A DNA stretch of 56,987 nt from an uncultured virus (IMG/VR IMGVR_UViG_3300029305_009261) (IMGVR_UViG_3300029305_009261); one strand, 5' to 3'; shown: positions 4,722-56,987, numbered from the stretch's first letter. A program made the numbers and translations. The notes: a model not told the origin generated them from the sequence alone.

Positions 4722-4728
4722 ACTTACT

Positions 4729-6139: not shown

Positions 6140-6179
6140 GAGAAACGCCTGCCTTTCAAAAACGGGATGTAAAAAATCT

Positions 6180-7061: not shown

Positions 7062-7091
7062 AATAACTATTCCTATTGAAAATACATATTA

Positions 7092-7781: not shown

Positions 7782-7795
7782 ATTGTTTTTATACT

Positions 7796-7825
7796 TATTA
7801 GCTAACTTTTGGTTTAAGTTTTAGG
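7796..7825 (-). promoter_or_regulatory. element-specific promoter-like motif, copy 1
   Basis: CCTAAAACTTAAACCAAAAGTTAGCTAATA directly after a terminator hairpin. Confidence 0.75.
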
Positions 7826-7861
7826 AATAAAAATAAAGCCCACATTGCTGTGAGCTTTTAT

Positions 7862-8401
7862 TTAATACCGTGTTTGCATGAATTGTACTTTTTCGTAATT
7901 ATTTAATATTTCAATAGCTTTTTGGATATGAGACCGTCGTAAACCTCCGTCAAAATAAGAAGATTGAACCCAATGATTTTCATATCCGTAATCTGTCCAT
8001 TGCCAGTTTTCATCATCCAAGATAACAAAATTATCAACGTCATGTTCTTTTAGCCATTGTTGAATCTCAGCACCTCTTCCTGTGCCATACTTAATTTTAA
8101 ACTCAGGCAAATCTTCTAAAGTTGTTTCTGCTATCCAATCAGGAACATCTCCTGAACATTGTGGAGGAATATAGGAAGTTTTACCAATCACTTCTATATC
8201 ATTACTAAGTAATGTTTGTAATAACATTTCATACCAGACATCATTGAGTCTCCAACTAGAACTAATTACAACTTTAGCATCGGTGCATTCACAAAGTTCT
8301 TTTATCAATTGGATTTTAGCGAGGTCAATATTATCGGTTTCTGGATTTCGATAAGAGCTATAAGTAAGTTCTCCGTCCACATCAAGAAAAACGACTTTCA
8401 T
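7862..8401 (-). CDS. HAD-superfamily hydrolase (Swiss-army-knife RNA-repair-like HAD)
   Basis: FLDVDG, VISSSWR, RG.EI..WL, FVILDD. Confidence 0.8.
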   Translation of the reverse strand: MKVVFLDVDGELTYSSYRNPETDNIDLAKIQLIKELCECTDAKVVISSSWRLNDVWYEMLLQTLLSNDIEVIGKTSYIPPQCSGDVPDWIAETTLEDLPEFKIKYGTGRGAEIQQWLKEHDVDNFVILDDENWQWTDYGYENHWVQSSYFDGGLRRSHIQKAIEILNNYEKVQFMQTRY

Positions 8402-8411
8402 TTTTAAACAC

Positions 8412-9047
8412 CTACCGTTTCAGAGTTAATGAATTTGATTTTTCCAATAGATAATGATACACTGGCGGTGGGACTAATTCTTCGATTTGGTCAAAATCAT
8501 TTTGATAAAATGCTTCTCGGATATTTGTTGCAGAAATTTGTGAAAATTTGCTATCCATTTCAATTGGAGTAAAACAGTTTTGATGTTTTAAGACAAAGGA
8601 AGAAGCTTCTGCTGTTATTGTTTTTCCGTTTCGATTTACCACTAGAATTGGGGTAGTCGCCAATAAATCTTCAATATGGAACCAACGTTCCAGCTTTTTT
8701 AAATTATCTTGTCCAATACATAAAGAAACTTTGTCATATTTAAAGAAGTTTCTAATATACTCAATTGTATTATAGGTATAGCCGTCTACAGTACCATCAA
8801 CTTCAATCGAAGCTACGTAAAATTTACGGTCTGCATCAATAAGAGATAAGCTCTTTTTTAGTAATTGGCAGCGTTCTTCTCCAGTTAGAAATACAGTTCC
8901 TTTTAACTTTTTATAAGAGTATCGGTCAGTACTTGGCACATACCAAATATCTGCTTCTGGATATTTTTCATGTAATGTAAGCCCCATAGCAATATGAGCT
9001 TCTGTTACCGGGTTAAATGTTCCGGGGATAATAATTGCTGTTCTCAT
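8412..9047 (-). CDS. nadD: nicotinate/nicotinamide-nucleotide adenylyltransferase
   Basis: GTFNPVTEAH, YTYNT, IGQDN...W, ISATNIR, VPPPV motifs. Confidence 0.85.
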   Translation of the reverse strand: MRTAIIIPGTFNPVTEAHIAMGLTLHEKYPEADIWYVPSTDRYSYKKLKGTVFLTGEERCQLLKKSLSLIDADRKFYVASIEVDGTVDGYTYNTIEYIRNFFKYDKVSLCIGQDNLKKLERWFHIEDLLATTPILVVNRNGKTITAEASSFVLKHQNCFTPIEMDSKFSQISATNIREAFYQNDFDQIEELVPPPVYHYLLEKSNSLTLKR

Positions 9048-9408
9048 TAACTAACTCCTTTTCTTCGCTCAATAAAGAATAAATGTTTGATAAAGTTGTT
9101 TTATCTAGACCATGAATCTTTTTAATAAATAGTCTGATGAGATGCTTTTCTTTCTCTGAAAACGAGCTTATATCAATCAAACCCCCAGAAATTGCATCAT
9201 TAAAACATTCTTCGAATTCTTCTAAATTATCTTCAAGCTTGTAAGCTTCGATTATTTGTTGTTTCCAGTGTTTTGGTGGTTTAGAGTCTCCGTGTTCTAC
9301 TCGTGATAAAAATGCAGAAGATACATTAAGTCGTTGAGCCATATCTGAAAGCTTTTCATTTTCATCAATTCTTAATTTTCTGCAAAATTTTCCGAATTCC
9401 GTAAGCAT
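9013..9408 (-). CDS. XRE-family HTH regulator
   Basis: MLTEFGK..RKLR...DMA..L.VSSAFLS.VE.G. Confidence 0.8.
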   Translation of the reverse strand: MLTEFGKFCRKLRIDENEKLSDMAQRLNVSSAFLSRVEHGDSKPPKHWKQQIIEAYKLEDNLEEFEECFNDAISGGLIDISSFSEKEKHLIRLFIKKIHGLDKTTLSNIYSLLSEEKELVNENSNYYPRNI

Positions 9409-9423
9409 AGAACATCTCCTTTC

Positions 9424-9930
9424 TTAAAGAGTATGACTAAAGTTATCGAACATTATTTTTATCGGGTCTTTAAAGTATTGCGGTTCTGGGTATAAGGCCA
9501 TATAGATTTCGCGTTCTTTTTCAGATAAAGACCTTATAAATTTACCAAAAGCCATTCCATAGTCTTCTCCACGCCCCATTCTCCAGCCCATGGTTCCTCG
9601 TGGATATAAAGGAAATACTATCCAAGGAGGTAAAACAGCTTTTAATTCAGGGATGTTATTTTTCATTATGAAAGAACAAGTTTTTTCTGCATATTCTTCT
9701 AATACTTTTAGATATTTAGAAATTGTTTCAATAACATCTTCTGGCAAATTCCAATTTTCTTCATTTAGAGCAAATTCTGCTGGGTTTTTTAATGGAAGAT
9801 GATGTGCCCACGAGAATAAATAATCACTATGTTGTATTTTCTCATTGATACAAAATTTTTGGATATAGTCAGATTTTGCAATTAAATCTTGAATTTCAAA
9901 AGGGGTATAATAATTATGGAATAATATCAT
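9424..9930 (-). CDS. hypothetical protein with PPW..GWRMG.GE.Y domain
   Basis: Motif PPWIVFP...GWRMGRGEDY; paralog of 9960..10433. Confidence 0.65.
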   Translation of the reverse strand: MILFHNYYTPFEIQDLIAKSDYIQKFCINEKIQHSDYLFSWAHHLPLKNPAEFALNEENWNLPEDVIETISKYLKVLEEYAEKTCSFIMKNNIPELKAVLPPWIVFPLYPRGTMGWRMGRGEDYGMAFGKFIRSLSEKEREIYMALYPEPQYFKDPIKIMFDNFSHTL

Positions 9931-9959
9931 GTCAAGTGCTCCTTACCTTTCTATATAGT

Positions 9960-10433
9960 TCATTCAAAATATTCTGGGATTGGATAAAGTTTTTGATAAT
10001 TATTTAACTCTTTTTCAGAAAGGGATTTTAAAAATTTTTGATAAGCTTTAAAATAAAACTCTCCTTTACCTTGATTCCAATATATTTCGTCTTTAGGAAA
10101 TAAAGGAAATACTATCCATGGTGGCAAGACCTGCTTTAAAAGAGGAAGTTTATCATCAATAACAATATCCGATGAAATTGTTCCGGCATATTGGTCTAAT
10201 TCTCTCCAATAAAAACATATTTTTCTGCTTTCTTTTGTTGTTAAATCCCAATTGTTTGGCTCTAAAATACTTCCATTTTTATCTTTTAGCGGGAGGTGAT
10301 GACACCATTTAAATAATGTCGCCGAATAAATTTCTTTTTCATTAACACAAAAACTTTGAATATAATGGGATTTATCAACAAGGTCTTTGATATTAAAGGA
10401 ATAAGAGTCCTTTTTAAGGTTCTTTTTAAACAT
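9960..10433 (-). CDS. paralog of 9424..9930
   Basis: Shared YIQ.FC.NEK, HHLPLK, PPWIVFPL. Confidence 0.65.
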   Translation of the reverse strand: MFKKNLKKDSYSFNIKDLVDKSHYIQSFCVNEKEIYSATLFKWCHHLPLKDKNGSILEPNNWDLTTKESRKICFYWRELDQYAGTISSDIVIDDKLPLLKQVLPPWIVFPLFPKDEIYWNQGKGEFYFKAYQKFLKSLSEKELNNYQKLYPIPEYFE

Positions 10434-10451
10434 CAGAGCATCCTTTCTCTT

Positions 10452-10877
10452 TTACAATGAATTTGCCATAATAGCTCTAGCTGTATACATACAAAAATTT
10501 CCGCTAAAATATTTATTTAATACCTGCAGAAACAAATCTTCTTTTGACACCAAATAAAATAGGGTCATACAGGATTGTAGTTTTAAATTATCCGGATAGC
10601 CAAATAAATGTTCCACATCTATTATCGGAGAATCTAATACAGCTTTTGTGATTTCTCTAAGGTTTGAGCCAAGAACAGGGTCAGTCATATAGGCGAGAGC
10701 TTCTTCTTTATTATGAATGGCATAATATTGTGCAGTACCGGAGAAGCCCAGACCATACATCTGTGGAAAAATAAACCACATCCAATGACCTTTTTTCTGC
10801 CCTGCTTTTATTTCAGATAATGCAGAAATATATGTAAATTCTTGAGCAGAATGAAATTTATGTAAAAAGTCATTCAC
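10452..10877 (-). CDS. DUF1810 family protein
   Basis: HWMWFIFPQ..GLG.S, PD..KL.SCMTLF. Confidence 0.85.
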   Translation of the reverse strand: MNDFLHKFHSAQEFTYISALSEIKAGQKKGHWMWFIFPQMYGLGFSGTAQYYAIHNKEEALAYMTDPVLGSNLREITKAVLDSPIIDVEHLFGYPDNLKLQSCMTLFYLVSKEDLFLQVLNKYFSGNFCMYTARAIMANSL

Positions 10878-10881
10878 ATTA

Positions 10882-11520
10882 TCACTCTCCTTTATCTAAA
10901 AGATTTGCTTTTAAAAAAGCATTATGTGGGCAGATAGATTGACAAAGGTCACACATAGGAAGTGTTGATAAAGGTTTCTGTCCTTTTTCCACATATGTGC
11001 ATAAACACTTTAATCCATCCACTTGATACGGAGTTAAACATTGAGAAGGACAAGATTGTAAACATAGGTCACAATCACCACAAGGGTTGTAGTCAGTTAG
11101 AGGCGAATCATATTGTTCTGGGATATAATCTGTAAGAACACAGGCAAAACGTAAATAAGTCCCATAGGTAGGATTGATAATTAAAGAGTTTTTACCAAAA
11201 ACACCAATACCAGATAATACACAAGCATTTTTAATACTAATACCCACAGTTACTTTCGCTTGAAATCCTTGTTGCTTTAATTCTGCTGCCAACTCTTTTG
11301 CTTTATCTCTTGCTAGTTTATAACTAGGAAAATCATCACCAAGAATTCCTTTTTTGACAACATCCATTTCTGGAGTAACAGGAGCTCCTATAACAAAAAC
11401 AGTTCGAGCTTCTTTTAAAATAGAAGAACATTTTTTTCCGGCTTCATATTTTTTTACGGGACAGTTTATATCAATTAGGTCCAAATCTGAAGCTTTACAT
11501 GTTCTAATAATAAAATCCAT
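10882..11520 (-). CDS. epoxyqueuosine reductase (QueG)-like 4Fe-4S protein
   Basis: G.FGKN.L.INP.YG, CGDC.LC...CP, CD.CQ..CP.N. Confidence 0.7.
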   Translation of the reverse strand: MDFIIRTCKASDLDLIDINCPVKKYEAGKKCSSILKEARTVFVIGAPVTPEMDVVKKGILGDDFPSYKLARDKAKELAAELKQQGFQAKVTVGISIKNACVLSGIGVFGKNSLIINPTYGTYLRFACVLTDYIPEQYDSPLTDYNPCGDCDLCLQSCPSQCLTPYQVDGLKCLCTYVEKGQKPLSTLPMCDLCQSICPHNAFLKANLLDKGE

Positions 11521-11541
11521 TATACTCCCCCCTAAAAATGG

Positions 11542-11823
11542 TTATATGTCTTTTCGTGATTTTATATATTCGTTGAAATTCGCAAGTTTTTCTTCCGAAA
11601 GAAACATTTCTACAAGTCCACAGGTAGGGCAAACTGTAGTACTAAGGCTACATTGCCAGTCTGGTTCGTCACTTGCAGAAATGTTTAACTTTTTTCTTAG
11701 CTTAGTTTGTGCCTTGGTAACTACTAATCTTGGTCCATATGCAATACCTCCGGTAATATCGGATGTGGCGTATATTTTATCAGATTCAATCATCTGCGTA
11801 TTACAATTTCTACAAAGTCTCAT
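11542..11823 (-). CDS. zinc-ribbon protein
   Basis: CRNC...CPTCG. Confidence 0.6.
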   Translation of the reverse strand: MRLCRNCNTQMIESDKIYATSDITGGIAYGPRLVVTKAQTKLRKKLNISASDEPDWQCSLSTTVCPTCGLVEMFLSEEKLANFNEYIKSRKDI

Positions 11824-11854
11824 AAAAAACTCCTTTCTAGAATAAGAGATTGGA

Positions 11855-12316
11855 TTATTTTACAACAGAAGAAATTCCACGAATCCAAGAGGGTTCATAT
11901 TCATTCATTAACCAACCAACACCTTTACTGTGATGGTCATCAAACCAGTGCCAGATTTCCTCTCTATGAGTTCCCTTATTCCATCCTTGCCAGTCAACAT
12001 CTAAACAATCGTTCTCATCTGTAGGGACATCTTCGAGTTCTTCCCAAAGTTTTTCAATTCGAGAGTCAGAAATATCGGACTTTATCTCGATGTTTCGACG
12101 GGTAAGTTCAAGTTGATATAACTCTACACGATTTTCTGATTTTGCTTCTAAATCACGAGAATAGCTTGTACCTACTTGAAAACAATGATAAGCATCTGCT
12201 TTGAATTTTGTATAGAGGATATATAAATATGCCGTTGAAATATTCTGAACGTCAAAATCTTTCTGACTCATAGCCTTATTAAAATCTTCTATAGGGCATT
12301 CTTTATAATCTAACAT
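11855..12316 (-). CDS. phage-type hypothetical protein
   Basis: LW.EL.DVP...GT.REEIWHWFD motif. Confidence 0.6.
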   Translation of the reverse strand: MLDYKECPIEDFNKAMSQKDFDVQNISTAYLYILYTKFKADAYHCFQVGTSYSRDLEAKSENRVELYQLELTRRNIEIKSDISDSRIEKLWEELEDVPTDENDCLDVDWQGWNKGTHREEIWHWFDDHHSKGVGWLMNEYEPSWIRGISSVVK

Positions 12317-12363
12317 AAAGTTCTCTCTTTGTCGTAAATTCTTATTTTATTATATACTTTCTT

Positions 12364-13188
12364 TTATTTTAAATAGTGAGTAAAATCAACTTTTCCTAAG
12401 GTTTCGCTTAAATCTTGTTCTGGGAAAAGCTCTTCAGGAGTTCGGAGCCACTCACCAATCTGACAAAATACGTCTCCGAGAGACCCTTGAATAAATAAAT
12501 CTTCTTCGCCTAGTTTAATATCGAGTTTATCCCGATTGATTACGACAAGATGTTTCCCTTGAAAATTATTGATAAAACTGGCAGCAGGCCATACTGTAAG
12601 AGAAGTACCACCAATAATTAGCATATCGGCTTCTTCAATCGCTTGTGTAGCATTATCTACGGCTTTTTTCGGTAGCTGCTCTCCATATAAAGTGACGTCT
12701 GGTCTGATTTGACCACCACATTCACATTTGGGAATTTTCTCTTTTGTAGTAAATAAAAAGTCTGGATGATATTCCATAGTGCATTTATTACAGTAACATC
12801 TCTGTGTGGTTCCATGGATTTCATAAACATTCTTACTGCCAGCTTTTTGATGTAAACCGTCAATATTTTGAGTAACAATGGCTTTTACTTTTCCAAGGTG
12901 TTCTAATTCTGCCAAAACTTTATGAGTAATATTTGGCTCAAAATTTCTGGTGTCCATCTTTTGGCGATAAAACTCATAGAACACTTTTGGATGATAGTAT
13001 AGACAATCACGACTTAACAGATATTCTGGTTGATAACCAGAAAAATTTACATCATGTTGGTTATAAAGTCCATCTTTGCTTCGGAAATCAGGAATCCCAC
13101 TTTCTGTAGATACTCCTGCACCGCCAAAGAAAACAATATTTTTGGATTCTTTTATGTAGCCTATAAGCTTGTTAATCTTATCTTGCAT
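12364..13188 (-). CDS. cobB: Sir2/CobB-family NAD-dependent deacylase
   Basis: GGAGVSTESGIPDFR, TQNIDGLH, EIHG, Zn CxxC/CxC, GTSL.V.PA. Confidence 0.9.
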   Translation of the reverse strand: MQDKINKLIGYIKESKNIVFFGGAGVSTESGIPDFRSKDGLYNQHDVNFSGYQPEYLLSRDCLYYHPKVFYEFYRQKMDTRNFEPNITHKVLAELEHLGKVKAIVTQNIDGLHQKAGSKNVYEIHGTTQRCYCNKCTMEYHPDFLFTTKEKIPKCECGGQIRPDVTLYGEQLPKKAVDNATQAIEEADMLIIGGTSLTVWPAASFINNFQGKHLVVINRDKLDIKLGEEDLFIQGSLGDVFCQIGEWLRTPEELFPEQDLSETLGKVDFTHYLK

Positions 13189-18501: not shown

Positions 18502-18969
18502 TTACCTTTTATATAATTGATATTTTTTGCTAATTTGATGAGCAATTTCATCCGGCAATGGCTTAAACCAAATGCCAACAGTTGTGGTCCCATCTTCATT
18601 TTCTGGAATAAGCTCTGTTAAACAGTTGTCATTGATGATTCCAAAGTCAATATTTTCAGTCAGTCCCAATGATTCTGCAATAGTTTTTGCTTTTAAAAGA
18701 TGAGTCTTATTTTTAGCCTCACAGATTGTTTTAACAAAAGAACCCTGTAAATACTGTTCAAATTCTTCTTTATCAAGTTTTAAGAATGCTTTGTAATAAT
18801 TTGCATCTACCGGAAGCATTGCAGTTGTAAAGTCATTGACAAAACCTATAGCTGTTCTTTGAATCATTCTGGTCCAATATCCTTCTGCACAATGAGCCAC
18901 CATAGCTGCGAGCTTTCCTGCGGATAAATTAAGGTCTTTACGAATTATAAAAACACGACGAAAACTCAT
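18502..18969 (-). CDS. peptidyl-tRNA hydrolase type 2 (Pth2)
   Basis: IRKDL.LS.GKLAA..AH, K.I, I.D...TE, T.VG..P, L.LY. Confidence 0.8.
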   Translation of the reverse strand: MSFRRVFIIRKDLNLSAGKLAAMVAHCAEGYWTRMIQRTAIGFVNDFTTAMLPVDANYYKAFLKLDKEEFEQYLQGSFVKTICEAKNKTHLLKAKTIAESLGLTENIDFGIINDNCLTELIPENEDGTTTVGIWFKPLPDEIAHQISKKYQLYKR

Positions 18970-38176: not shown

Positions 38177-39720
38177 GTGAAGCCTCACACGACTGAAGTC
38201 GCGTACTTCCGCCTGCTTTAAGTAGGCAGACTACATTTCTACTATACAGCAAAAACTCAGAAACCATGGTCTATACAGACCACAGTACCGCATTTAAGCT
38301 AATTAATGTAGATAACGTTGAGGTGCTTCTCTTAGAGCATTGAGGGACTTTTGCCTCAATGTCCAACCTTTTCCTTTCGGTTAAGGATTTTAAGATTTCT
38401 CTGATGAAGTATCTGGCTCCTATGTTATAAGAAGCCGATAAATCACAATTATAGATTTTATCAGTAGTAAAACGACAGATGGAATAATTACCACCTATGT
38501 TTCGTTCTACAAAGCCACTACCATCAAAGGCAAGCTTTGATGTATTCCACGCACAGATGTGGTTTACATGCATACCCATATGGTGTACTTTATCAGTAAC
38601 GATTGCTTGTACTTCTTTGCAACGCCAAAGATGTAATCTTTGTTTCTTAGAACCTTTCTTTTTACCAGACTTATCTAAGTGTTCAAACACAACAGTATCA
38701 GCATTATAATAAGCAGCTACATCCGCTATAGATTGAGCTGTTTTCACTGATATGTCGTGGTTAATACCCTTGGCTCTAGCCCACAGTCTAGGCATGTGTT
38801 TTACCCCATGTTGCTGTGCTTTCTTTATCCTGTTAACTGCATGGTTCAGAGAGTATTGTTCTTTATTAAGACGACAAAAATGTCTGCCTAAGATAGTGCC
38901 ATCTGATTTCATGACAGTAACGGTTGCCGGGTTATTTATCCCTAAATCTACAGCAACAATGGTCTGGTTAAATATGTCAGTATCAGAAAGATTTACACTC
39001 TCTTCAAAAGGAAAGTCCAAAAACCACTCCTTACCTCTCTTTTGAAGTGTAGGAGCACATTTCTTTCTGTTACTACAGCGTTTGTTTATGTAATCAACAT
39101 CAGATTTACGCAAGGCTATGGTTACCCAATCCCATGTATTTCTAACAAAGACTTTTACTTCTGCTTGATAAGTATCCAATTGGTTATACATGTTATCTCT
39201 GTATAGTGTTGGATAAATAAATCCAGCTTTAGGTAACGATGGTTCTTTACCAACAGGATTTAACTTCCAGTTTTTTAGGTTAGAATGATAACTGGATACT
39301 TTGCCTATAGCTTCCTGTATGACTGCTCTTCTGAGATAACTAGGAAACTTATAAAACTTACTGTTAAAGTCATACTTTGGGTTTGGATTTTTCTTGGTCT
39401 GATGAATTAGTTTTTCTACGTAGTTTACACGTTCTTTGGATAACTCTACAGCTTCGATATCTTCCCATTCCTTTAAACAGACATCAATGAGGTAATCTAC
39501 AGCATTACGATAGATGGCTACGGTTTGTTTAAAGATATGGTTATAATGTTTGATTTTTACTTTATAAGTAGTCATTATCTTCATGGTGGTGTACCTCCTT
39601 TCTGTTTGATTTGGGAATAGATTTAACCAGTATGGTTATGGTAAAAATGATAGGATTTTTGGTCTTTTTACGAGAGATTTATACCACACCTAACTGATGA
39701 CTAAAGTCACGAGAGTGCGG
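38177..39720 (-). mobile_element. non-autonomous IS200/IS605-family (tnpB-only) element
   Basis: Subterminal hairpins GTGACTTTAGTCA and CGCGACTTCAGTCGTG; right end ...GGCTTCAC; no tnpA; inserted in the last codons of 39679..40080. Confidence 0.75.
38271..39584 (-). CDS. tnpB: RNA-guided endonuclease TnpB
   Basis: RuvC motifs VAVDLG, VFEHL, NCDLSASYNI. Confidence 0.85.
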   Translation of the reverse strand: MKIMTTYKVKIKHYNHIFKQTVAIYRNAVDYLIDVCLKEWEDIEAVELSKERVNYVEKLIHQTKKNPNPKYDFNSKFYKFPSYLRRAVIQEAIGKVSSYHSNLKNWKLNPVGKEPSLPKAGFIYPTLYRDNMYNQLDTYQAEVKVFVRNTWDWVTIALRKSDVDYINKRCSNRKKCAPTLQKRGKEWFLDFPFEESVNLSDTDIFNQTIVAVDLGINNPATVTVMKSDGTILGRHFCRLNKEQYSLNHAVNRIKKAQQHGVKHMPRLWARAKGINHDISVKTAQSIADVAAYYNADTVVFEHLDKSGKKKGSKKQRLHLWRCKEVQAIVTDKVHHMGMHVNHICAWNTSKLAFDGSGFVERNIGGNYSICRFTTDKIYNCDLSASYNIGARYFIREILKSLTERKRLDIEAKVPQCSKRSTSTLSTLISLNAVLWSV

Positions 39721-41514: not shown

Positions 41515-41883
41515 TTATAAAGCTTTAGATACAGCTTCAATAATTTTATCTTCAGCAAATGGTTTTACAATAAAATTCATGGCTCCATGCTGTAATGCGT
41601 CTAAAACCATAGACTGTTGTCCCATAGCCGTACACATAATTACTTTAGCATTTGGAGCAATCTTTTTAAGCTCTTTTAGGGCTTCTAAACCGTCCATTTC
41701 TGGCATGGTGATATCAAGAGTAATAAGGTCGGGAGAATGCTCCTTATACATTTCAAGCATTTCTCGTCCATTATTAGCTTCAATTACTTCATGACCAAGT
41801 TTAGTCACAGCATTTTTAATTACCATTCTCATAAATGCTGCATCATCTGTTACAAGTATTTTTGCCATTATATTTACCTCCAT
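41515..41883 (-). CDS. cheY: chemotaxis response regulator CheY
   Basis: VTDDAAFMR, LDITMPEMDG, CTAMGQQ, FIVKPF (Firmicutes CheY signature). Confidence 0.9.
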   Translation of the reverse strand: MEVNIMAKILVTDDAAFMRMVIKNAVTKLGHEVIEANNGREMLEMYKEHSPDLITLDITMPEMDGLEALKELKKIAPNAKVIMCTAMGQQSMVLDALQHGAMNFIVKPFAEDKIIEAVSKAL

Positions 41884-46045: not shown

Positions 46046-46052
46046 AAATAAG

Positions 46053-46192
46053 CGATAGATTAGGGATTCGAACCCCAATGCCGATACGAGCCGACTATAA
46101 CGGACGCCTTTTTACTCCTACGGAGCAACCAATCTCCGTTGTCTTAAACTACGGTTTTCGGGACCGATGCAATACCATTCTGCCAACCTACC
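46053..46192 (-). tRNA. 140-nt Ser(CGA)-like tRNA with ~73-nt variable region
   Basis: Acceptor GGTAGGT/ATCTATC-G, D arm, loop CCCGAAA, T arm TGGGG-TTCGAAT-CCCTA. Confidence 0.65.
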
Positions 46193-52962: not shown

Positions 52963-53481
52963 TTAATTTTTACCTCTAATTGCTATGTTTAAGTTTAATA
53001 AAGGGCTACCATCTGTCTGAAATAATGGGACGCAGATATTAGCTGCATACTGTCTGGACATAACGACATTTCCTCTTGCAACTGTTGGTGGAGTAATGTC
53101 AATCAATCGGTTCTGTATACTAAAAATAGTTGCTGCATTTCCCATAATCATATTTCCCAATTCGGAAATTGCACTCATTGCCATTTCAGTTAATTCCGGA
53201 ATTTCAAAGCCCATCATCATTTTACTGGCAAGTAGTTTTGCACTCTCCTCATTGATTTCTAAAATAACTTGACCTTCTAGTTGTCCGGTAACTCCAAGCA
53301 TTATCAAAACTGCATTGTCGGTAAAAGAAGTGTCTTTGATACAAGGTTTTCCAACTTTAGATTTAATCTGACTGACAGTTTCAATGATATTCATTGCTGC
53401 AGTTAAAAATGGGTTGATGGTATTTACGTCTACAACAGAAGTCTGTGACTTCTGATTGTCATGGATACTCGACTGTGGCAT
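52963..53481 (-). CDS. cheX: chemotaxis phosphatase CheX
   Basis: INPF, GVTG...G, SA.SELGNMI.GNA, DITPP. Confidence 0.9.
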   Translation of the reverse strand: MPQSSIHDNQKSQTSVVDVNTINPFLTAAMNIIETVSQIKSKVGKPCIKDTSFTDNAVLIMLGVTGQLEGQVILEINEESAKLLASKMMMGFEIPELTEMAMSAISELGNMIMGNAATIFSIQNRLIDITPPTVARGNVVMSRQYAANICVPLFQTDGSPLLNLNIAIRGKN

Positions 53482-53558
53482 GTAAATTCTCCATTTCTTC
53501 TGTATTTTATTTTGTAGGGTAAATGATTCTTGTGCCTGTAAGAATACTTTATCCTAAG

Positions 53559-53633
53559 CGACTCTAACGGGATTCGAACCCGTGGTCTCCGGCGTGACAG
53601 ACCGGCGCTTTAAGCCAGCTAAGCTATAGAGCC
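53559..53633 (-). tRNA. tRNA-Asp(GUC)
   Basis: Loop CTGTCAC. Confidence 0.9.
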
Positions 53634-53751
53634 ATATATAGGGAGTTGACGGGACTCCCCGGCACCTTATGTTGTCATCATTAGGTGTGTAATAAATAAG
53701 CGTCTGGTAAGTGTCCTGTGTTGTCGTACTACAACTTATTTTTTACAAAAA

Positions 53752-53833
53752 TCCGTGAGGTTGGACTCGAACCAACGATGTTTCTTTGTGGGGGTTTTAC
53801 AGACCCTTGTCTTCGCCGCTAGACTACTCACGG
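53752..53833 (-). tRNA. tRNA-Tyr(GUA)
   Basis: Loop CTGTAAA; C1-G72. Confidence 0.9.
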
Positions 53834-53872
53834 TCAATTAAAATCATTTACTTTGCTTTTGTTGAAAACAAA

Positions 53873-53957
53873 TCCGTGGAGTAGGACTTGAACCTACAAG
53901 AGCCGAAGCCATCGATTTTACAGACCGAACCGCTACCAGTTACGGGACTATCCACGG
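53873..53957 (-). tRNA. tRNA-Tyr(GUA)
   Basis: Loop CTGTAAA; C1-G72. Confidence 0.9.
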
Positions 53958-53999
53958 GAATTTCTTTTCGTAATAATAATAATAATAATCAGAATCCAT
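53940..53999 (-). CDS. putative Tyr/Asp leader peptide overlapping the tRNA-Tyr 5' end
   Basis: AAAGGAG RBS; MDSDYYYYYYEKKFPWIVP. Confidence 0.75.
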   Translation of the reverse strand: MDSDYYYYYYEKKFPWIVP

Positions 54000-54048
54000 A
54001 ATATTTATCTCCTTTGTTTATTTTTTTGTAGTTCATTAAGAACTTAAT

Positions 54049-54118
54049 GTGACCTAAGAGAATCGAACTCTTGAGAACGGAGCCACAATCCGCCGTTTTA
54101 CCACTAAACTAAAGCCAC
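54049..54118 (-). tRNA. tRNA-His(GUG)
   Basis: Loop TTGTGGC; G-1:C73. Confidence 0.9.
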
Positions 54119-54120
54119 AG

Positions 54121-54193
54121 TGCAGGATGAGAGGTTCGAACTCCCGACTTCCAACTTGTAAAGATGACACTCTCCCGGCTGAGTTAATCCTGC
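54121..54193 (-). tRNA. tRNA-Val(UAC)
   Basis: Loop TTTACAA; weak anticodon stem. Confidence 0.8.
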
Positions 54194-54308
54194 ATTCTTA
54201 AGCACCTTAAACTTAATACGCTATATATTAACCCTCTTTATAGATAAGGTGACGAGAGTTATACAGTTCTAGGAGATAACCTTATCATTTATCATCCTAA
54301 GGTTTTAG

Positions 54309-54380
54309 TGGACACGATGGGATTCGAACCCAATCTTTCTTCTTGCAAGGAAGACGCTTTCCCAGTTAAGCTATCGGCCC
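54309..54380 (-). tRNA. tRNA-Ala(UGC)
   Basis: Loop CTTGCAA; G3-U70. Confidence 0.9.
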
Positions 54381-54384
54381 ATAG

Positions 54385-54457
54385 TAGGAATTGGAAGGAA
54401 TCGAACCCTCGTCTCCTGTCTCCACGACAGGCGCTATATCCATTAAGCTACAACCCT
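54385..54457 (-). tRNA. atypical tRNA-like gene (undetermined anticodon)
   Basis: Normal D and T arms; anticodon hairpin CCTGTC-GTGGA-GACAGG lacks U33; bulged acceptor. Confidence 0.6.
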
Positions 54458-54471
54458 ATAGATTTTTTTGA

Positions 54472-54647
54472 TGCGGATATTGAGGATTCGAACACTCGAA
54501 GACATTTCATAAAACAACATTGTCTGTCCATAGACTCCGGATTTTCTATGTTAGATATTGTTGTAGTTATTAACAATACCAAACGCTGTTTTCCTACTAC
54601 TGTCAGCTACTCACCGTAGCCTGCTTTGGCCGCTTGCATATCACCGC
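54472..54647 (-). ncRNA. 176-nt tRNA-like RNA with ~100-nt insertion in the variable region
   Basis: GCGG/CCGC-A acceptor, class II-type D arm, GGCTAC-GGTGA-GTAGCT hairpin, GTTCGAATC T loop. Confidence 0.6.
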
Positions 54648-54694
54648 TTATTATATTATCACAAGTAATGAACAAGGCATCACCTGTAATAAAA

Positions 54695-54774
54695 TGCCTC
54701 GTGTTCGAGTCGAACGAACTTCTCTGGATTTTCAGTCCAGCGCATGTATTAATTACCGAATCTGCTTACGAGGC
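54695..54774 (-). tRNA. tRNA-Phe(GAA), enlarged D loop
   Basis: Loop CTGAAAA. Confidence 0.85.
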
Positions 54775-54824
54775 TTGGTAAAGTCTGTTTCTTCTGCTTT
54801 ACCAAAACTAAATCGTTTCTTCAT
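54753..54824 (-). CDS. putative Phe leader peptide overlapping the tRNA-Phe 5' end
   Basis: AAAGGA RBS; MKKRFSFGKAEETDFTKPRKQIR. Confidence 0.6.
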   Translation of the reverse strand: MKKRFSFGKAEETDFTKPRKQIR

Positions 54825-55103
54825 TTTTCAAAGTTCCTTTCCAGTTAAAATTAAAAAGCTGTAACTATACGATTATCTTCATAAAAGAATTCATATTGGC
54901 TTTTTGTTTGTTTGACATTTAAAAGTTTTCCACGAAAGGAATATCTTTTTCCATTTTGAGAATATTTGAAGCCAATATTTTCATTTTTTATCATAGAAAA
55001 ATTTAACTTCATAATGATATCCTCCATATAATTATTTTTATCTCTTATCTCCTGCTTAAATTAGGGGTGCCTGTTCCATAGAAACAGGAGATTTTTGATA
55101 AAG

Positions 55104-55143
55104 CGCTGCGAGTTGGGCTCGAACCAACAACCTACCGGTTAAC
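55104..55143 (-). pseudogene. 3' half of a tRNA-Asn starting at the anticodon
   Basis: GTTAACCGGTAGGTTGTTGGTTCGAGCCCAACTCGCAGCG; no matching 5' half found. Confidence 0.7.
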
Positions 55144-55828
55144 CTATGGTTGATTGGGTTATTTCTGTGTTTATAATAGTTTCTTGAGTTATCAAGCCTT
55201 CATGGATTTCTCTATGACAGTTTGCACAAACACAAATACATTTGTCTAATTCTACCTTTAACCGTTCCCATGATTTTGTAGTTCCAGCATGAGAAAAACC
55301 AAAGTCTTTTTCTTCTGGGTCTTTATGATGGAATTCAAGAGCCCCTATGCATTTATTATATCCACAAAGAAGGCATTTGCCACCTTTGTATTCTACAGCC
55401 ATTTCCTTCAACTTTCTGCGTCTCTTAGTAACGCTTTTAACGTTTCTTGCTCGACGCTTTTGCAATCTATAGCTATCTGTTGTTTTGTGAGGGCTCCAAT
55501 ATAAATTAGAAGCAGACAAGTTGTCTGGATTTTCATCTACAAATAAAACAAAGGGTAGATTTTTAGGATTTTCTAAAAAATTTTCTGCAACAGCCCTATG
55601 TAATATGATGCTTTTGCGTTGTCGTCTTTTGCCAAGGCTAACGTGAAAAACATAATAAGATGTTCCCCTATTTTCCGAAGCATTGATTTTATATGTTTTT
55701 AAAATTTTCTTAGAGTTTTTTCTTCTAATGTGGCCTAAATTACTAATTTCGTAATTTTCGTAAATATTATTTTGATATATTAAAGGTTTCCATTCTTCTT
55801 GAAAATCAATAATACCATTCATCTCCAA
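55139..55828 (-). CDS. NUMOD4/HNH homing-endonuclease-like protein
   Basis: EEWK...YEISN.G.IR, HR.VA..F; C-terminal C..CGY...LEFHH.DP..K...CANCHREIH. Confidence 0.85.
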   Translation of the reverse strand: MEMNGIIDFQEEWKPLIYQNNIYENYEISNLGHIRRKNSKKILKTYKINASENRGTSYYVFHVSLGKRRQRKSIILHRAVAENFLENPKNLPFVLFVDENPDNLSASNLYWSPHKTTDSYRLQKRRARNVKSVTKRRRKLKEMAVEYKGGKCLLCGYNKCIGALEFHHKDPEEKDFGFSHAGTTKSWERLKVELDKCICVCANCHREIHEGLITQETIINTEITQSTIG

Positions 55829-55868
55829 TCATTTTGTCTTTAGTCGATGGGTGGTGCCTACACCCAAA

Positions 55869-55939
55869 CGGGCCGGGAAAGAGTTGAACTTTCCTATCCA
55901 GCTTAACAGGCTGGCGTTCTACCGATGAACTACCGGTCC
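55869..55939 (-). tRNA. tRNA-Asn(GUU)
   Basis: Loop CTGTTAA. Confidence 0.9.
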
Positions 55940-55983
55940 AAAACATTGTAATATCGAGCTACGAATCCATATTTTTATGTAAT

Positions 55984-56059
55984 AAAAAATCGCCTATTAT
56001 CAGCAACCACAAAGAAAATTTTCTCTATCCTTGTTGGTTATTTGCTGTTATAGACGATT
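55984..56059 (-). terminator. long hairpin plus U-tract upstream of the first tRNA (putative attenuator)
   Basis: AATCGTCTAT...ATAGGCGATT-TTTT with internal CAGCAA/TTGCTG pairing. Confidence 0.55.
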
Positions 56060-56128
56060 GCAATTTACCTATGTATAAAAGGCATTCTATGATGTTTTTT
56101 ATAGTACTTGTGCCTGTAAGCATCTATT

Positions 56129-56308
56129 TCAACATCGTAACAATCGTCTTTCGAGTGTTTGTTCTAACCCTCTATGTTCTTCTGTAATGACGGAATTATC
56201 CCAATAACAATCGAGACTAGGGGCATAAGGGCGAACGAAACTAAACATATTAAAATTATATGTTTTCGCTGCAGCCTGATTCTGTTTTGCCACTAATGAC
56301 TTCATCAT
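56129..56308 (-). CDS. 59-aa first ORF of the tRNA operon (putative master leader)
   Basis: AAAGGA RBS; MMKSLVAKQNQAAAKTYNFNMFSFV...; uses all 20 amino acids. Confidence 0.55.
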   Translation of the reverse strand: MMKSLVAKQNQAAAKTYNFNMFSFVRPYAPSLDCYWDNSVITEEHRGLEQTLERRLLRC

Positions 56309-56355
56309 GGTTTTTAATTCCTTTCATTTTATTTGTAAGTTTTTTATCTTACACT

Positions 56356-56385
56356 TATTAGCTACTTTTTGGTTTAAGTTCTCGG
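56356..56385 (-). promoter_or_regulatory. element-specific promoter-like motif, copy 8 (head of tRNA operon)
   Basis: CCGAGAACTTAAACCAAAAAGTAGCTAATA. Confidence 0.8.
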
Positions 56386-56414
56386 TAAATTCTTACCGAA
56401 GTGTTTTAAATAAA

Positions 56415-56530
56415 TAAAAAAAGAAAGTTTCTGATTTTCCGCTGACCATTTTCCCCTAAAATCATCCCCCGACGCTTTTAGAAAAACATTACATATAGGT
56501 CAGACGAAAGACAGGCACTTCCTTCATCTA
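56415..56530 (-). ncRNA. putative sigmaA-driven small RNA with an AGUGCCUG-loop hairpin
   Basis: Follows a strong promoter; AGATGAAGGA-AGTGCCTG-TCTTTCGTCT hairpin, second CTGACC/GGTCAG stem, U-rich end. Confidence 0.55.
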
Positions 56531-56535
56531 CAGGT

Positions 56536-56564
56536 AGTATATCACACTTTAAAAAGAATGTCAA
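56536..56564 (-). promoter_or_regulatory. sigmaA promoter
   Basis: TTGACA-17 bp-TATACT with extended TG and A/T-rich UP element. Confidence 0.8.
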
Positions 56565-56641
56565 CACTTTTTTTAAAATTTTTTTTTATTTTTTTAAAGA
56601 TTTTTTTGCTATAATAGTTGGTCACAATCCAATCCAAAAAA

Positions 56642-56716
56642 AATGGGTTACGAATGGGTTATTTTAAATAATTAACCCAATAAAAAATCAAGGGCTTTAT
56701 CCCTAAAACCCTTGAC
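56642..56716. repeat. putative attachment-site arm repeats and inverted repeat just 3' of rpmF
   Basis: AATGGGTTA x2 direct (56642, 56653), inverted TAACCCA, and TCAAGGG/CCCTTGA hairpin. Confidence 0.55.
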
Positions 56717-56736
56717 TTTACTGACTTTGCTGTTAA

Positions 56737-56919
56737 TTACTCAGCTGCAATAACTTCCTTCTTGTTGTAAGAACCGCAAGCCTTACATACTCTGTGTGGC
56801 ATCATTAATTCGCCGCACTTGCTGCACTTTACAAGGTTTGGAGCAGTCATTTTCCAGTTAGCTCTACGACTGTCTCTTCTTGCCTTGGAAGTCTTATTCT
56901 TCGGACAAATAGCTCCCAT
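56737..56919 (-). CDS. rpmF: 50S ribosomal protein L32
   Basis: PK.KTSKARRD.RRA...CxxCG....PHRVCxxCG.Y. Confidence 0.97.
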   Translation of the reverse strand: MGAICPKNKTSKARRDSRRANWKMTAPNLVKCSKCGELMMPHRVCKACGSYNKKEVIAAE

Positions 56920-56921
56920 GA

Positions 56922-56987
56922 TTACACCTCCTTAACGTTGTTAAAAATATCTCGGATAACAGACATTCTTGGATCTGGCTCTGTACG
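56922..56987 (-). CDS. 3' end of YceD/DUF177 protein (partial)
   Basis: ...EPDPRMSVIRDIFNNVKEV* directly upstream of rpmF, the usual synteny. Confidence 0.75.
   Translation of the reverse strand, partial: RTEPDPRMSVIRDIFNNVKEV

What the first reader, a model, noticed from the sequence alone, without database searches (positions are those of the whole stretch)
53513..56564. SigmaA-driven RNA whose loop is complementary to four conserved hairpin loops in the tRNA operon
Seen: four minus-strand hairpins with different stems expose the same loop, ACAGGCAC at 53532-53539, 55067-55074 and 56110-56117 and TAGGCAC at 55854-55860. Three lie just 3' of a tRNA and before a CDS; one follows the first leader ORF. 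A near-consensus sigmaA promoter (56536-56564) starts an RNA whose first hairpin has loop AGUGCCUG, the complement of CAGGCAC. Inference: loop-loop kissing, in trans or long-range in cis, that could silence, antiterminate or direct processing of the tRNA operon while the element is integrated.
Basis: partly seen in the sequence, partly recalled or inferred. Interest (0 to 1): 0.8.

Follow-up and report, generated by a model that had tools for sequence, protein, structure and literature searches.

The report
Complementary hairpin loops in tRNA operon
At the start of a large tRNA gene cluster in a phage-like element from animal gut, five RNA hairpins display the same eight-letter word or its exact complement at their tips, which suggests, but does not prove, that the operon's leader RNA can dock onto the junctions between tRNAs and genes.

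Summary
The observation mostly holds. ACAGGCAC occurs 5 times in the window (0.57 expected), 4 of them within 3 kb. On the minus strand it forms the whole 8-nt loop of two clean hairpins (56105-56122, 53526-53545). A 7-nt variant, UAGGCAC, is the loop of a third (55848-55866). The fourth copy (55067-55074) sits in the loose tip of a longer stem, not in a neat loop. An 11/12 sigma-70-type promoter (56564-56536) starts an RNA whose 5'-terminal 11-bp hairpin has the loop AGUGCCUG, the exact complement. One GC-rich loop complementary to three others never arose in 2000 shuffles.

Corrections:
- Two "different" stems share a 14-nt core.
- There is no canonical terminator, so a discrete ~115-nt RNA is unproven.
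- From about 112 nt the leader is predicted to refold into a rod that buries the loop.
- Nothing shows that the element is integrated.

No homologue of the region could be retrieved and no RNA run is listed, so covariation and expression remain untested. Best reading (about 0.35): RNA-level junction hairpins whose shared loop pairs with the leader hairpin. Rivals are a protein-recognised loop, a DNA-level motif, or no function.

The parts
56675..56735 (-). Intrinsic terminator of rpmF (long GC-rich hairpin followed by a U-run). It insulates the tRNA operon from upstream transcription.
   Evidence: Fold -22.7 kcal/mol, z -6.59, 0 of 200 shuffles as good. The rpmF product matches Pfam Ribosomal_L32p at 3.4e-26.
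56536..56564 (-). Sigma-70/sigmaA-type promoter, TTGACA-17-TATACT, with an upstream TG. An A/T-rich tract precedes it.
   Evidence: 11 of 12 matches, top hit of the scan. Best of 21 minus-strand candidates in the whole window. The A/T tract is read directly from the sequence.
56501..56530 (-). Hairpin E: an 11-bp stem (3 G-U pairs) at the predicted 5' end of the transcript. Its 8-nt loop AGUGCCUG is at 56512-56519.
   Evidence: -11.8 kcal/mol, z -3.21, 3 of 200 shuffles as good. Loop unpaired probability is 0.92 while the nascent RNA is 90 nt or shorter. The transcription start is inferred from the -10 box, not measured.
56414..56531 (-). Leader 'rod': an alternative fold that pairs both arms of E with downstream segments. 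It ends in a U-rich tract continuing to about 56408. It could be a weak terminator/attenuator or an RNase III substrate.
   Evidence: 132-nt fold -40.5 kcal/mol, z -4.60, 0 of 200 shuffles as good. Unpaired probability of GUGCCUG is 0.29 from 112 nt onwards. The terminator scan finds no canonical terminator here. No Rfam family matches.
56129..56308 (-). 59-aa ORF (the 'leader ORF') with an AAAGGA Shine-Dalgarno-like sequence upstream. No known family.
   Evidence: ORF list. 0 Pfam families. Its conservation was not tested.
56105..56122 (-). Hairpin A: ugcuu-ACAGGCAC-aagua, 6 nt after the stop codon of the 59-aa ORF. The loop is at 56110-56117.
   Evidence: Loop unpaired probability 0.99. The local fold is not significant on its own (z -1.49).
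55868..55940 (-). Intact tRNA-Asn(GUU).
   Evidence: ARAGORN. Rfam tRNA 62.2 bits.
55848..55866 (-). Hairpin B: ugggug-UAGGCAC-caccca, 1-2 nt after the tRNA-Asn 3' end and just upstream of the HNH ORF. The loop is at 55854-55860.
   Evidence: Unpaired probability 0.69-0.88. z is only -1.37. It is unchanged in a ~98.6% identical contig from a bovine-gut run, which is uninformative.
55139..55828 (-). NUMOD4/HNH homing-endonuclease-like ORF. It lies between the intact tRNA-Asn and a tRNA-Asn remnant.
   Evidence: Pfam NUMOD4. 11 PHROG families, 9 of them HNH endonuclease families; best 4.9e-30.
55104..55143 (-). 3' remnant of a second tRNA-Asn, running from the anticodon GUU to the acceptor 3' strand.
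   Evidence: Contigs of other organisms align to 55112-55143 and then continue upstream with a tRNA 5' half (loose-end consensus in 3 runs). The T-arm and acceptor are read directly. ARAGORN and Rfam do not call it.
55047..55092 (-). Stem-loop C: a 10-bp outer stem with a 26-nt, partly structured tip containing ACAGGCAC (55067-55074). It lies about 30 nt after the tRNA remnant.
   Evidence: -15 kcal/mol; z -3.01 and -2.14. Unpaired probability of the motif 0.79, with AGG at about 0.45.
53558..53633 (-). tRNA-Asp(GUC).
   Evidence: 67.7 bits.
53515..53556 (-). Hairpin D. The core is 53526-53545, auucuu-ACAGGCAC-aagaau, with the loop at 53532-53539. Outer pairs extend it so that it starts 1-2 nt after tRNA-Asp. 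It lies about 45 nt upstream of the CheX-like ORF.
   Evidence: -8.7 kcal/mol, z -3.42, 1 of 200 shuffles as good. Unpaired probability 0.82-1.00.
52963..53481 (-). CheX/CheC-like ORF downstream of hairpin D. It was used as the anchor for the homologue hunts.
   Evidence: Pfam CheX 1.3e-14. 604 relatives, the top ones 95-60% identical; the Lachnospira CheX named in the list are 52-54% identical.

Best explanation
These are RNA-level elements of one long sigmaA-type-driven transcript that carries tRNAs and small genes. The transcript belongs to a large, 33% GC, phage-like element.

Shown:
- A strong promoter sits behind the rpmF terminator.
- A stem-loop (E) lies at the predicted 5' end of the transcript.
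- Stem-loops begin 1-2 nt after tRNA-Asn (B) and after tRNA-Asp (D, counting its extended stem).
- Another lies about 30 nt after a tRNA-Asn remnant (C), and another 6 nt after the first small ORF (A).
- All five present ACAGGCAC/UAGGCAC, or in E the exact complement, at their tips.

Inferred, step 1. The stems act as terminal protective or processing hairpins. E would cap the primary 5' end. B and D would cap the 5' ends left when the tRNAs are cut out. This matters in Firmicutes, where a 5'-to-3' exonuclease attacks open 5' ends.

Inferred, step 2. The shared GC-rich loop is a recognition code, and its partner is the leader hairpin. E's loop (A+GUGCCUG) can form a 7-8 bp kissing helix with the loops of A, C and D (A+CAGGCAC), and a 6-7 bp helix with B. 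Pairing could occur in cis along the transcript, or in trans after processing.

Inferred, step 3. The leader is a two-state device. E forms first with an open loop. Later the whole leader can refold into a rod that hides the loop and ends in a U-run. Docking of a junction loop onto E would then hold the leader in the open, read-through or processing-competent state, and absence of docking would favour the rod.

The outcome (stability, cleavage by a double-strand-specific RNase at the kissing helix, or read-through) is not known.
For: - Motif repetition: 5 exact 8-mers against 0.57 expected, and 0 of 100 shuffles reach 5. Four of them lie within 2,987 bp.
- Apical placement: A, D and E have the motif as the entire 8-nt loop, and B as a 7-nt loop.
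- Complementarity is confined to the loops. The stems of E, A/D and B are unrelated.
- Hub statistic: 0 of 2000 shuffles. A GC-rich complementary loop pair arises in 15 of 1000 shuffles.
- Loop duplex energies are -10.3 to -14.1 kcal/mol, and target loops have unpaired probability 0.69-1.00.
- E is open (0.92) in nascent RNA up to 90 nt.
- The rpmF terminator and the 11/12 promoter make this an independent transcription unit.
- Hairpin positions are 1-2 nt after tRNA 3' ends.
- Precedents from papers: RNAIII loop-loop pairing cleaved by RNase III (PMC3861533, passages); a 5'/3'-UTR interaction modulating RNase Y on B. subtilis hbs mRNA (PMC5737220, abstract); 5' stem-loop stabilisers (reference list and one passage of PMC3997798).
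Against: - All evidence comes from a single sequence. No relative of the region was obtained, so there is no covariation and not even conservation.
- No RNA data exist, and the transcription start is inferred.
- The thermodynamically favoured full leader buries the loop (0.29 unpaired).
- No canonical terminator defines a discrete sRNA.
- Hairpins A and B are not individually more stable than shuffles (z -1.49 and -1.37).
- C is not a clean loop.
- Only 2 of 18 tRNA junctions in the array carry the motif, so it is not a general feature of processing in this operon.
- A and D share 14 nt and could be a simple duplication.
- The same data fit a DNA-level motif read in either orientation.
- The finding was selected by eye from a very large scan, so the region-level p-values overstate the significance.
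Confidence: 0.35

Rival explanations
1. The junction hairpins are binding or cleavage sites for a protein, such as an RNA-binding regulator, an antiterminator of the boxB/N or NusG-paralogue kind, or a ribonuclease. The protein would read AGGCAC at the 3' side of an apical loop. The complement in the leader hairpin would be unrelated, or would act as a built-in competitor that masks the sites.
For: - The loop is conserved on unrelated stems, with AGGCAC always abutting the 3' stem arm.
- The sites lie downstream of a strong promoter in a roughly 56-kb one-strand gene block.
- Loop accessibility is high.
- Most of the window's proteins have no known family (59 of 88 have no Pfam hit), which leaves room for an unknown factor.
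Against: - It does not explain why the 5'-terminal hairpin carries the exact complement in a loop of the same size. Chance estimates for that are 15 of 1000 for one GC-rich pair and 0 of 2000 for the hub.
- No candidate RNA-binding protein was identified.
- No Rfam protein-binding motif matched.
Confidence: 0.22
2. The 8-bp word is a DNA-level signal read in either orientation. It could be an operator-like site for a regulator just downstream of the start site with extra copies in the operon. It could also be a hairpin or cruciform site for a strand-specific DNA enzyme, or a footprint of recombination or homing events around the HNH gene and the tRNA-Asn remnant.
For: - One copy is inverted relative to the others, which is natural for a DNA word.
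- E lies at about +12 to +19 of the promoter.
- B and C flank the HNH ORF and both read AGGCACC.
- The T4 tRNA cluster carries the homing endonuclease SegB (PMC2330249, listing and start of abstract only).
Against: - A duplex-DNA site does not need variable flanking inverted repeats, yet 4 of 5 local copies are exact apical loops and the fifth lies in a stem tip.
- Placement 1-2 nt after tRNA 3' ends fits RNA processing better.
- No recombinase, HUH enzyme or matching regulator was identified near the sites.
- No strand-switching joints were seen at E or A in the laid contigs (contigs only, so this is weak).
- The 14-mer core is not a spread phage element: 0 of 119 IMG/VR hits lie next to a tRNA, and 92 of 119 have only the built-in 3-bp stem.
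Confidence: 0.18
3. There is no shared function. A and D are a small duplication, B and C are partial look-alikes, E is a coincidence, and the hairpins are ordinary local structure in an AT-rich intergenic sequence.
For: - A and D share 14 nt.
- B has only 6-7 of 8 letters, and C is not a clean loop.
- z-scores for A and B are not significant.
- AT-rich complementary loop pairs are common in shuffles: 594 of 1000 have at least one.
- The feature was picked by eye from a very large scan, so some p<0.001 events are expected.
Against: - 8-mer excess: 5 against 0.57 expected.
- The GC-rich hub never arose in 2000 shuffles.
- The motif coincides exactly with the loop in three hairpins with different outer stems.
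- The copies cluster within 3 kb directly behind the operon promoter.
Confidence: 0.2

Closest known systems
Loop-loop (kissing) regulation by a multi-target RNA in Firmicutes: S. aureus RNAIII with the coa and rot mRNAs, cleaved by RNase III
   Same: One RNA uses an apical hairpin loop to pair with apical loops of several target RNAs. The kissing helix itself can be the substrate of a double-strand-specific RNase (PMC3861533, passages read).
   Different: - RNAIII loops are C-rich and target ribosome-binding sites. Here the targets lie 20-55 nt upstream of start codons, at tRNA/mRNA junctions.
- Here the 'regulator' is the 5' end of the same operon transcript.
- No expression or binding data exist for this locus.
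Countertranscript-driven transcription attenuation (pT181, pIP501, pAMbeta1) and the ColE1 RNA I/RNA II and R1 CopA/CopT kissing complexes (recalled, not looked up; a general description of kissing initiation was seen in PMC3861533)
   Same: Complementary 6-8-nt loops make the first contact. In the attenuation systems, that contact decides between two alternative leader folds, one of which terminates transcription.
   Different: - Those RNAs are cis-encoded antisense pairs, so complementarity extends through the stems. Here it stops at the loop (8 nt).
- Here the partners are encoded kilobases apart on the same strand.
- The leader's U-run structure is not a canonical terminator.
5'-terminal stem-loop mRNA stabilisers and 5'/3'-UTR pairing in B. 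subtilis (aprE and ermC leaders; hbs mRNA)
   Same: - A hairpin at the very 5' end, or at a processed 5' end, protects against 5'-dependent decay.
- hbs uses a 14-bp 5'/3'-UTR interaction to modulate RNase Y (PMC5737220, abstract; PMC3997798, reference list and one passage).
- E and A bracket the first small cistron in the same way.
   Different: Known stabilisers need no particular loop sequence. Here the loop word is the conserved part, and it is shared by several junctions.
Lambda nut boxB / N-type antitermination hairpins (recalled)
   Same: Short hairpins with a fixed loop lie downstream of an early promoter at the head of a very long one-strand gene block.
   Different: boxB copies keep both stem and loop and are bound by a known protein. 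No such protein is identified here, and a complementary copy has no place in that scheme.
[quoted passage not shown]
   Same: - The array has 35 ARAGORN tRNAs plus a tRNA-Phe called only by Rfam, and covers all 20 amino acids.
- It has embedded small ORFs and an HNH endonuclease gene.
- It has its own promoter.
- L-arrays are linked to HNH and RNA-processing genes and are specially regulated (PMC8421152, abstract and section 22). T4 SegB sits in the T4 tRNA cluster (PMC2330249, listing and start of abstract).
   Different: The reported Anabaena control is by 9-nt direct DNA repeats over the -10 box and the start site, not by hairpin loops. No loop network has been described in the papers I saw.

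Membership tests
Trans- or cis-acting kissing-loop regulatory RNA | Complementary sequences exposed in the apical loops of both partners | tested here: met
   E's loop is AGUGCCUG. The loops of A and D are ACAGGCAC and B's is UAGGCAC. C holds the motif in a loose tip. Loop duplexes are -10.3 to -14.1 kcal/mol.
Trans- or cis-acting kissing-loop regulatory RNA | Both loops accessible in the folded RNAs | tested here: inconclusive
   Targets have unpaired probability 0.69-1.00. E has 0.90-0.92 in short nascent RNA but 0.25-0.29 once the whole leader is present. These are predictions only.
Trans- or cis-acting kissing-loop regulatory RNA | A discrete transcript: a promoter and a defined 3' end | tested here: inconclusive
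   The promoter scores 11 of 12. There is no canonical terminator, only a 118-nt rod with a weak A-U/G-U base followed by a U-run.
Trans- or cis-acting kissing-loop regulatory RNA | Conservation or compensatory covariation of the two loops in relatives | not testable with these tools
   No homologous locus was retrieved. The only other copies seen are at least 97% identical.
Trans- or cis-acting kissing-loop regulatory RNA | Expression and physical pairing | not testable with these tools
   This needs RNA end mapping and binding assays, which are outside these tools.
5'-terminal stem-loop mRNA stabiliser (Firmicutes) | A stable hairpin within a few nt of the RNA 5' end | tested here: inconclusive
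   E starts 0-1 nt from the start site inferred from the -10 box. B starts 1-2 nt after a tRNA 3' end, and so does D counting its extended stem. The actual 5' ends are not measured.
Any described RNA family (Rfam 15) | A covariance-model match at or near the gathering score | tested here: not met
   Only tRNA passes the threshold. The best leader hit is a 26.7-bit match to a Giardia snoRNA model whose gathering score is 100.
Intrinsic terminator / attenuator | A GC-rich stem immediately followed by a U-run | tested here: not met
   The scan finds none on the minus strand in 56400-56540. The U-run is preceded by a stem base with 2 G-C pairs in 9 (my reading of the fold).
Repeated palindromic DNA element (REP/MITE-like) | Whole-element similarity including the stems, with many dispersed copies | tested here: not met
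   Stems differ apart from the 14 nt shared by A and D. The copies are confined to 3 kb.
Invertible DNA segment (inverted repeats E and A) | Both orientations present in sequence data, and a recombinase nearby | tested here: not met
   No strand-changing joints appear in 4 laid runs, and one contig spans 55112-56740 in the reference orientation. No recombinase domain occurs among the 88 ORFs. The data are contigs only, so this is a weak test.

The most novel reading that the evidence does not exclude
The leader is a self-sensing RNA switch for a phage tRNA operon. Its 5' hairpin (loop A+GUGCCUG) is an anti-rod, read-through element. It is held open by kissing with the identical loops (A+CAGGCAC) that cap the fragments released when tRNAs are excised from earlier copies of the same transcript. 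Operon output would then feed back on its own leader, and the same contacts would mark the junctions for cleavage or protection. This would be a one-to-many loop-loop network encoded entirely within one polycistron, with no antisense gene.
Probability: 0.1. Interest if true: 0.8.

Novelty: new variant of a known kind. Interest (0 to 1): 0.45.

Why it matters
Large phages and mobile elements carry whole tRNA sets, but little is known about how such mixed tRNA/mRNA transcripts are controlled, cut and stabilised. A short loop code shared by the leader and the tRNA-gene junctions would be a compact, purely RNA-based way to coordinate these steps. It would extend kissing-loop regulation, known from plasmid copy control and staphylococcal RNAIII, to long-range contacts inside a single operon transcript. 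It would also provide a searchable signature (complementary GC-rich apical loops in AT-rich tRNA arrays) for finding similar control in other elements. If the loops turn out to be a protein or DNA signal instead, they still mark an unknown regulator of a tRNA array.

Tried and rejected
**Known RNA families.** Rfam at gathering thresholds and at E up to 5 found only tRNAs.

**Homologue hunts. All failed to give a related locus.**
- blastn of 53300-56987 against phage records hit only rpmF-like bacterial-type contigs (77.9% identity) and unrelated HNH genes. The rpmF contigs carry no tRNA and no leader.
- The L32 and CheX proteins found no confirmed relative in IMG/VR.
- A 20-mer of hairpin E had 0 hits in IMG/VR.
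- A 19-mer of the tRNA-Asn T-arm gave 1 chance hit inside a coding region.
All 80 kept loci are 50-55% identical bacterial CheX without tRNA arrays.
- A clade-specific degenerate CheX pattern gave 15 stretches in GTDB genome contigs. None of the 15 encodes a CheX relative, and the 5 Firmicute-like loci checked have no tRNAs.
- tblastn against phages and plasmids: CheX had no phage match. The 506-aa ORF matched one record at 26.7%. Among plasmids, only Lachnospira eligens CheX matched, at 51.3%.
- The leader and hairpin A DNA searched in 401 sampled genomes of a Lachnospiraceae MAG's family gave 10 weak hits, all to the AT-rich middle of the query (positions 103-293). None covered E or A. The result is "not found in those searched".

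**Other checks.**
It is not a widespread element.
- Sequencing runs: 10 DNA holders, all animal faeces or gut, and no RNA holder listed.
- Laying 4 runs gave identical or at least 97% identical contigs, with no informative change in any hairpin and no strand-switch joint. Parts without cover carry no meaning.
- The host-side enrichment test on 80 bacterial loci was uninformative, because the loci are redundant copies of one region.
- No whole genome is held for the window, and earlier findings were not open.

**Readings considered and dropped.**
- tRNA-like arms: the loop letters do not fit T- or anticodon-loop rules.
- CsrA site: that needs GGA, and here it is GGC.
- phi29 pRNA and Y-RNA-like RNAs: no Rfam hit.
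- Invertible segment: no support.

Full report
**Setting**

The window is 33% GC. All substantial ORFs lie on the minus strand.

ARAGORN finds 35 tRNA genes between 45342 and 55940, all on the minus strand. Rfam adds a tRNA-Phe-like gene at 54703-54766. The array therefore covers all 20 amino acids.

Of 88 ORFs scanned, 59 have no Pfam family. The rest are auxiliary functions:
- NAD synthase, a cytidylyltransferase-like protein and Sir2
- PTH2
- the HAD domain of 'Swiss Army Knife' RNA-repair proteins
- an R2K ATP-grasp protein
- an OrfB_IS605-like protein
- GNAT, a SemiSWEET-like protein, CheX and a receiver domain
- a NUMOD4/HNH endonuclease

Only 5 of 30 ORFs hit a PHROG family. No capsid or terminase gene lies in the window. 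I read it as part of a very large phage or a similar mobile element. That is an inference.

The nearest named relatives of its CheX are Lachnospira proteins at about 52% identity. The DNA is held by runs from animal faeces and gut.

The right end carries the tail of a gene and rpmF (L32). They are 77.9% identical in DNA to a contig whose rpmF is followed by ordinary bacterial genes and no tRNAs. Whether the window's rpmF belongs to a host chromosome or to the element cannot be told, because the window ends there.

**The transcription unit**

rpmF ends in a strong terminator (-22.7 kcal/mol, z -6.59). After an A/T-rich tract comes TTGACA-17-TATACT with an upstream TG. It scores 11 of 12 and is the best promoter-like site on the minus strand of the whole window. 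The start site is inferred to lie about 7 nt after the -10 box, near 56530.

**The hairpins**

A direct enumeration of stems of at least 5 pairs and folding give five structures.

| Site | Coordinates | Structure | Position |
|---|---|---|---|
| E | 56501-56530 | 11-bp stem, loop AGUGCCUG; -11.8 kcal/mol, z -3.21 | predicted 5' end of the transcript |
| A | 56105-56122 | ugcuu-ACAGGCAC-aagua | 6 nt after the stop of a 59-aa ORF |
| B | 55848-55866 | ugggug-UAGGCAC-caccca | 1-2 nt after tRNA-Asn |
| D | 53526-53545 | auucuu-ACAGGCAC-aagaau | 12 nt after tRNA-Asp; outer pairs start 1-2 nt after the tRNA (-8.7 kcal/mol, z -3.42) |
| C | 55067-55074 (motif) | GG/CC only around the motif; it sits in the 26-nt, partly paired tip of a 10-bp stem (55047-55092) | about 30 nt after a tRNA-Asn remnant |

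A and D share 14 nt (CUUACAGGCACAAG), so 'different stems' is only partly true. The stems of E, B and A/D are unrelated. The complementarity between E and A/D is exactly 8 nt (GUGCCUGU against ACAGGCAC), with 7 nt inside E's loop. Both loops have the form 5'-A plus seven pairing bases.

**Is it more than chance?**

- The 8-mer occurs 5 times on both strands against 0.57 expected, and 0 of 100 shuffles reach 5. Four copies lie within 2,987 bp. The fifth (23455) is inside a coding region and has no hairpin.
- My own shuffles correct for choosing the word after the fact. Four hairpin loops sharing any GC-rich 6-mer or its complement within 3.1 kb were reached by 0 of 150 window shuffles; 12 reached 3.
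- One loop complementary to three others through a 6-mer with at least 4 G/C was reached by 0 of 2000 region shuffles. Without the GC filter, 109 of 2000 reach it.
- Complementary 7-nt loop pairs of any composition are common: 594 of 1000 shuffles have at least one. Only 15 of 1000 have a pair with at least 5 G/C.

The feature is non-random at the level of this region. It was, however, picked by eye from a very large scan, so these figures overstate its significance.

**The motif is not a general feature of the array**

I examined 18 junctions where a tRNA is followed by at least 25 nt before the next tRNA. Only the tRNA-Asn and tRNA-Asp junctions carry the motif hairpin. All copies lie in the first 3 kb behind the promoter.

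**The leader**

RNAs of up to 90 nt from the inferred start fold as hairpin E, with the loop open (unpaired probability 0.92). From 112 nt on, the favoured fold is a long rod in which both arms of E pair with downstream segments, and the CUG of the loop pairs with a CAG. The unpaired probability drops to 0.29.

The 132-nt fold is -40.5 kcal/mol with z -4.60. The rod ends in a U-run. However, the stem next to the U-run has only 2 G-C pairs in 9 (my reading of the fold), and the terminator scan finds nothing canonical there. A discrete ~115-nt RNA is therefore possible, through weak termination or by cutting of the rod, but it is not shown.

The target loops are predicted to be open in all contexts tried: A 0.99, B 0.69-0.88, C 0.79, D 0.82-1.00. 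The loop duplexes are worth -10.3 to -14.1 kcal/mol.

**What it most likely is**

The positions of E, B and D fit terminal protective hairpins. E lies at the primary 5' end. B and D lie at the 5' ends that would be left when CCA-less tRNAs are excised. The enzymes involved (RNase Z and RNase P) are my inference from established knowledge. Such 5' stem-loops stabilise mRNAs in Bacillus and E. coli. I saw the relevant works in the reference list, and one passage, of PMC3997798.

That role does not need a particular loop, yet the loop is what is conserved. The one hypothesis that explains both the shared loop and its exact complement in the leader's loop is RNA-RNA loop-loop pairing. Precedents exist in Firmicutes:
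- RNAIII pairs by loop-loop contacts with coa and rot mRNAs, and RNase III cuts at the kissing helix (PMC3861533, passages).
- B. subtilis hbs mRNA uses a 5'/3'-UTR interaction to modulate RNase Y (PMC5737220, abstract). E and A bracket the first small cistron in just that way.

I commit to this reading at about 0.35, with the two-state leader as a gate.

**Rivals**

1. A protein or RNase reads AGGCAC in the loop (0.22). This explains the targets but not E.
2. A DNA-level word is read in either orientation (0.18). As a precedent, short DNA repeats over the -10 box and the start site control the Anabaena tRNA L-array, and such arrays are linked to HNH genes (PMC8421152, section 22). This reading does not explain why the word is always at a hairpin tip.
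3. No function (0.20).

**Comparative and expression tests**

These would decide the matter, and they failed for lack of data.

CheX relatives at 60-95% identity exist in Logan, ENA and JGI assemblies. None of their DNA could be reached through the following:
- IMG/VR
- GTDB genome contigs
- phage and plasmid records
- 401 sampled Lachnospiraceae-family genomes

Laid contigs from four runs are the same element at 97% identity or more. They show no change in any hairpin, which is uninformative.

**Comparison with what is known**

Mechanistically the closest systems are:
- kissing-loop regulators (RNAIII; the plasmid countertranscripts and ColE1/R1, which I recall and did not look up)
- 5'-terminal stabiliser hairpins
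- 5'/3'-UTR pairing

The feature is not a member of any described RNA family. It is not a REP/MITE-like repeat. It does not contain a canonical attenuator.

If the loop-loop reading is right, it is a new variant of a known kind: same-strand, kilobase-range, one-to-many loop pairing inside a tRNA/mRNA polycistron. My two full-text searches on phage kissing loops and on tRNA arrays listed nothing of the sort. That is a limited search, not proof that it is absent from print.

**Verdict**

The feature is a real, non-random sequence and structure pattern. Interest is moderate (0.45).

Noticed in passing
window 55101-55940: An intact but unusual tRNA-Asn(GUU) (55868-55940; T-loop UUCAACU) is followed by a NUMOD4/HNH endonuclease ORF (55139-55828). 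Next comes the 3' part of a second, bacterial-type tRNA-Asn that starts at its anticodon (about 55143-55104). Contigs of other organisms align to 55112-55143 and then continue with a tRNA 5' half. This looks like a homing-endonuclease cassette that replaced or split a tRNA gene, as with SegB in the T4 tRNA cluster.
   Followed up: partly
window 54458-54702: A 245-nt gap between tRNA-Phe and tRNA-Pro has no ORF of note. It has a T-arm-like 3' end (GUUCGAAUC) and a sequence resembling the motif (UUACAGGUGA) just after tRNA-Phe. There is no Rfam hit, and ARAGORN finds nothing even with introns allowed. It is possibly a degenerate or unusual structured RNA.
   Followed up: partly
window 46052-46192: Rfam's tRNA model spans 140 nt here (37.4 bits). 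ARAGORN by default calls an 83-nt tRNA-Tyr(AUA). With introns allowed it calls a tRNA-Arg(CCG) with a 53-nt intron. This may be an intron-containing or rearranged tRNA.
   Followed up: partly
window 54703-54779: ARAGORN misses a tRNA-Phe(GAA)-like gene with an odd D-arm. Rfam finds it at 30.2 bits, covering model positions 9-63. It overlaps the end of a 23-codon ORF. With it, the array covers all 20 amino acids.
   Followed up: no
window 56737-56987: rpmF (L32) and the end of the upstream gene are 77.9% identical in DNA to a gut contig whose rpmF neighbourhood looks bacterial. Either the element carries a recently captured ribosomal-protein gene pair, or the window's last 300 bp are host chromosome.
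   Followed up: partly
window 2378-13188 and 18502-18969: This cluster of auxiliary genes is typical of very large phages. It includes NAD synthase, a cytidylyltransferase-like (NMNAT-type) protein, Sir2, an HD phosphohydrolase, the HAD domain of 'Swiss Army Knife' RNA-repair proteins, and PTH2 peptidyl-tRNA hydrolase. It suggests NAD+ salvage and tRNA/RNA repair functions alongside the tRNA array.
   Followed up: no
window 38271-39584: A 437-aa ORF has a weak OrfB_IS605 (TnpB-like) match (E 3e-4, below the Pfam cut-off). No PHROG family matches.
   Followed up: no
window 52963-53481; proteins P0001-P0044: The CheX-like protein has a graded series of relatives at 95-51% identity. They are known only from Logan, ENA and JGI assemblies and are distinct from bacterial Lachnospira CheX at about 52%. 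The window's copy has a 12-residue N-terminal extension compared with them. A receiver-domain gene lies at 41515-41883. Chemotaxis-type signalling genes on a phage-like element are unusual.
   Followed up: partly
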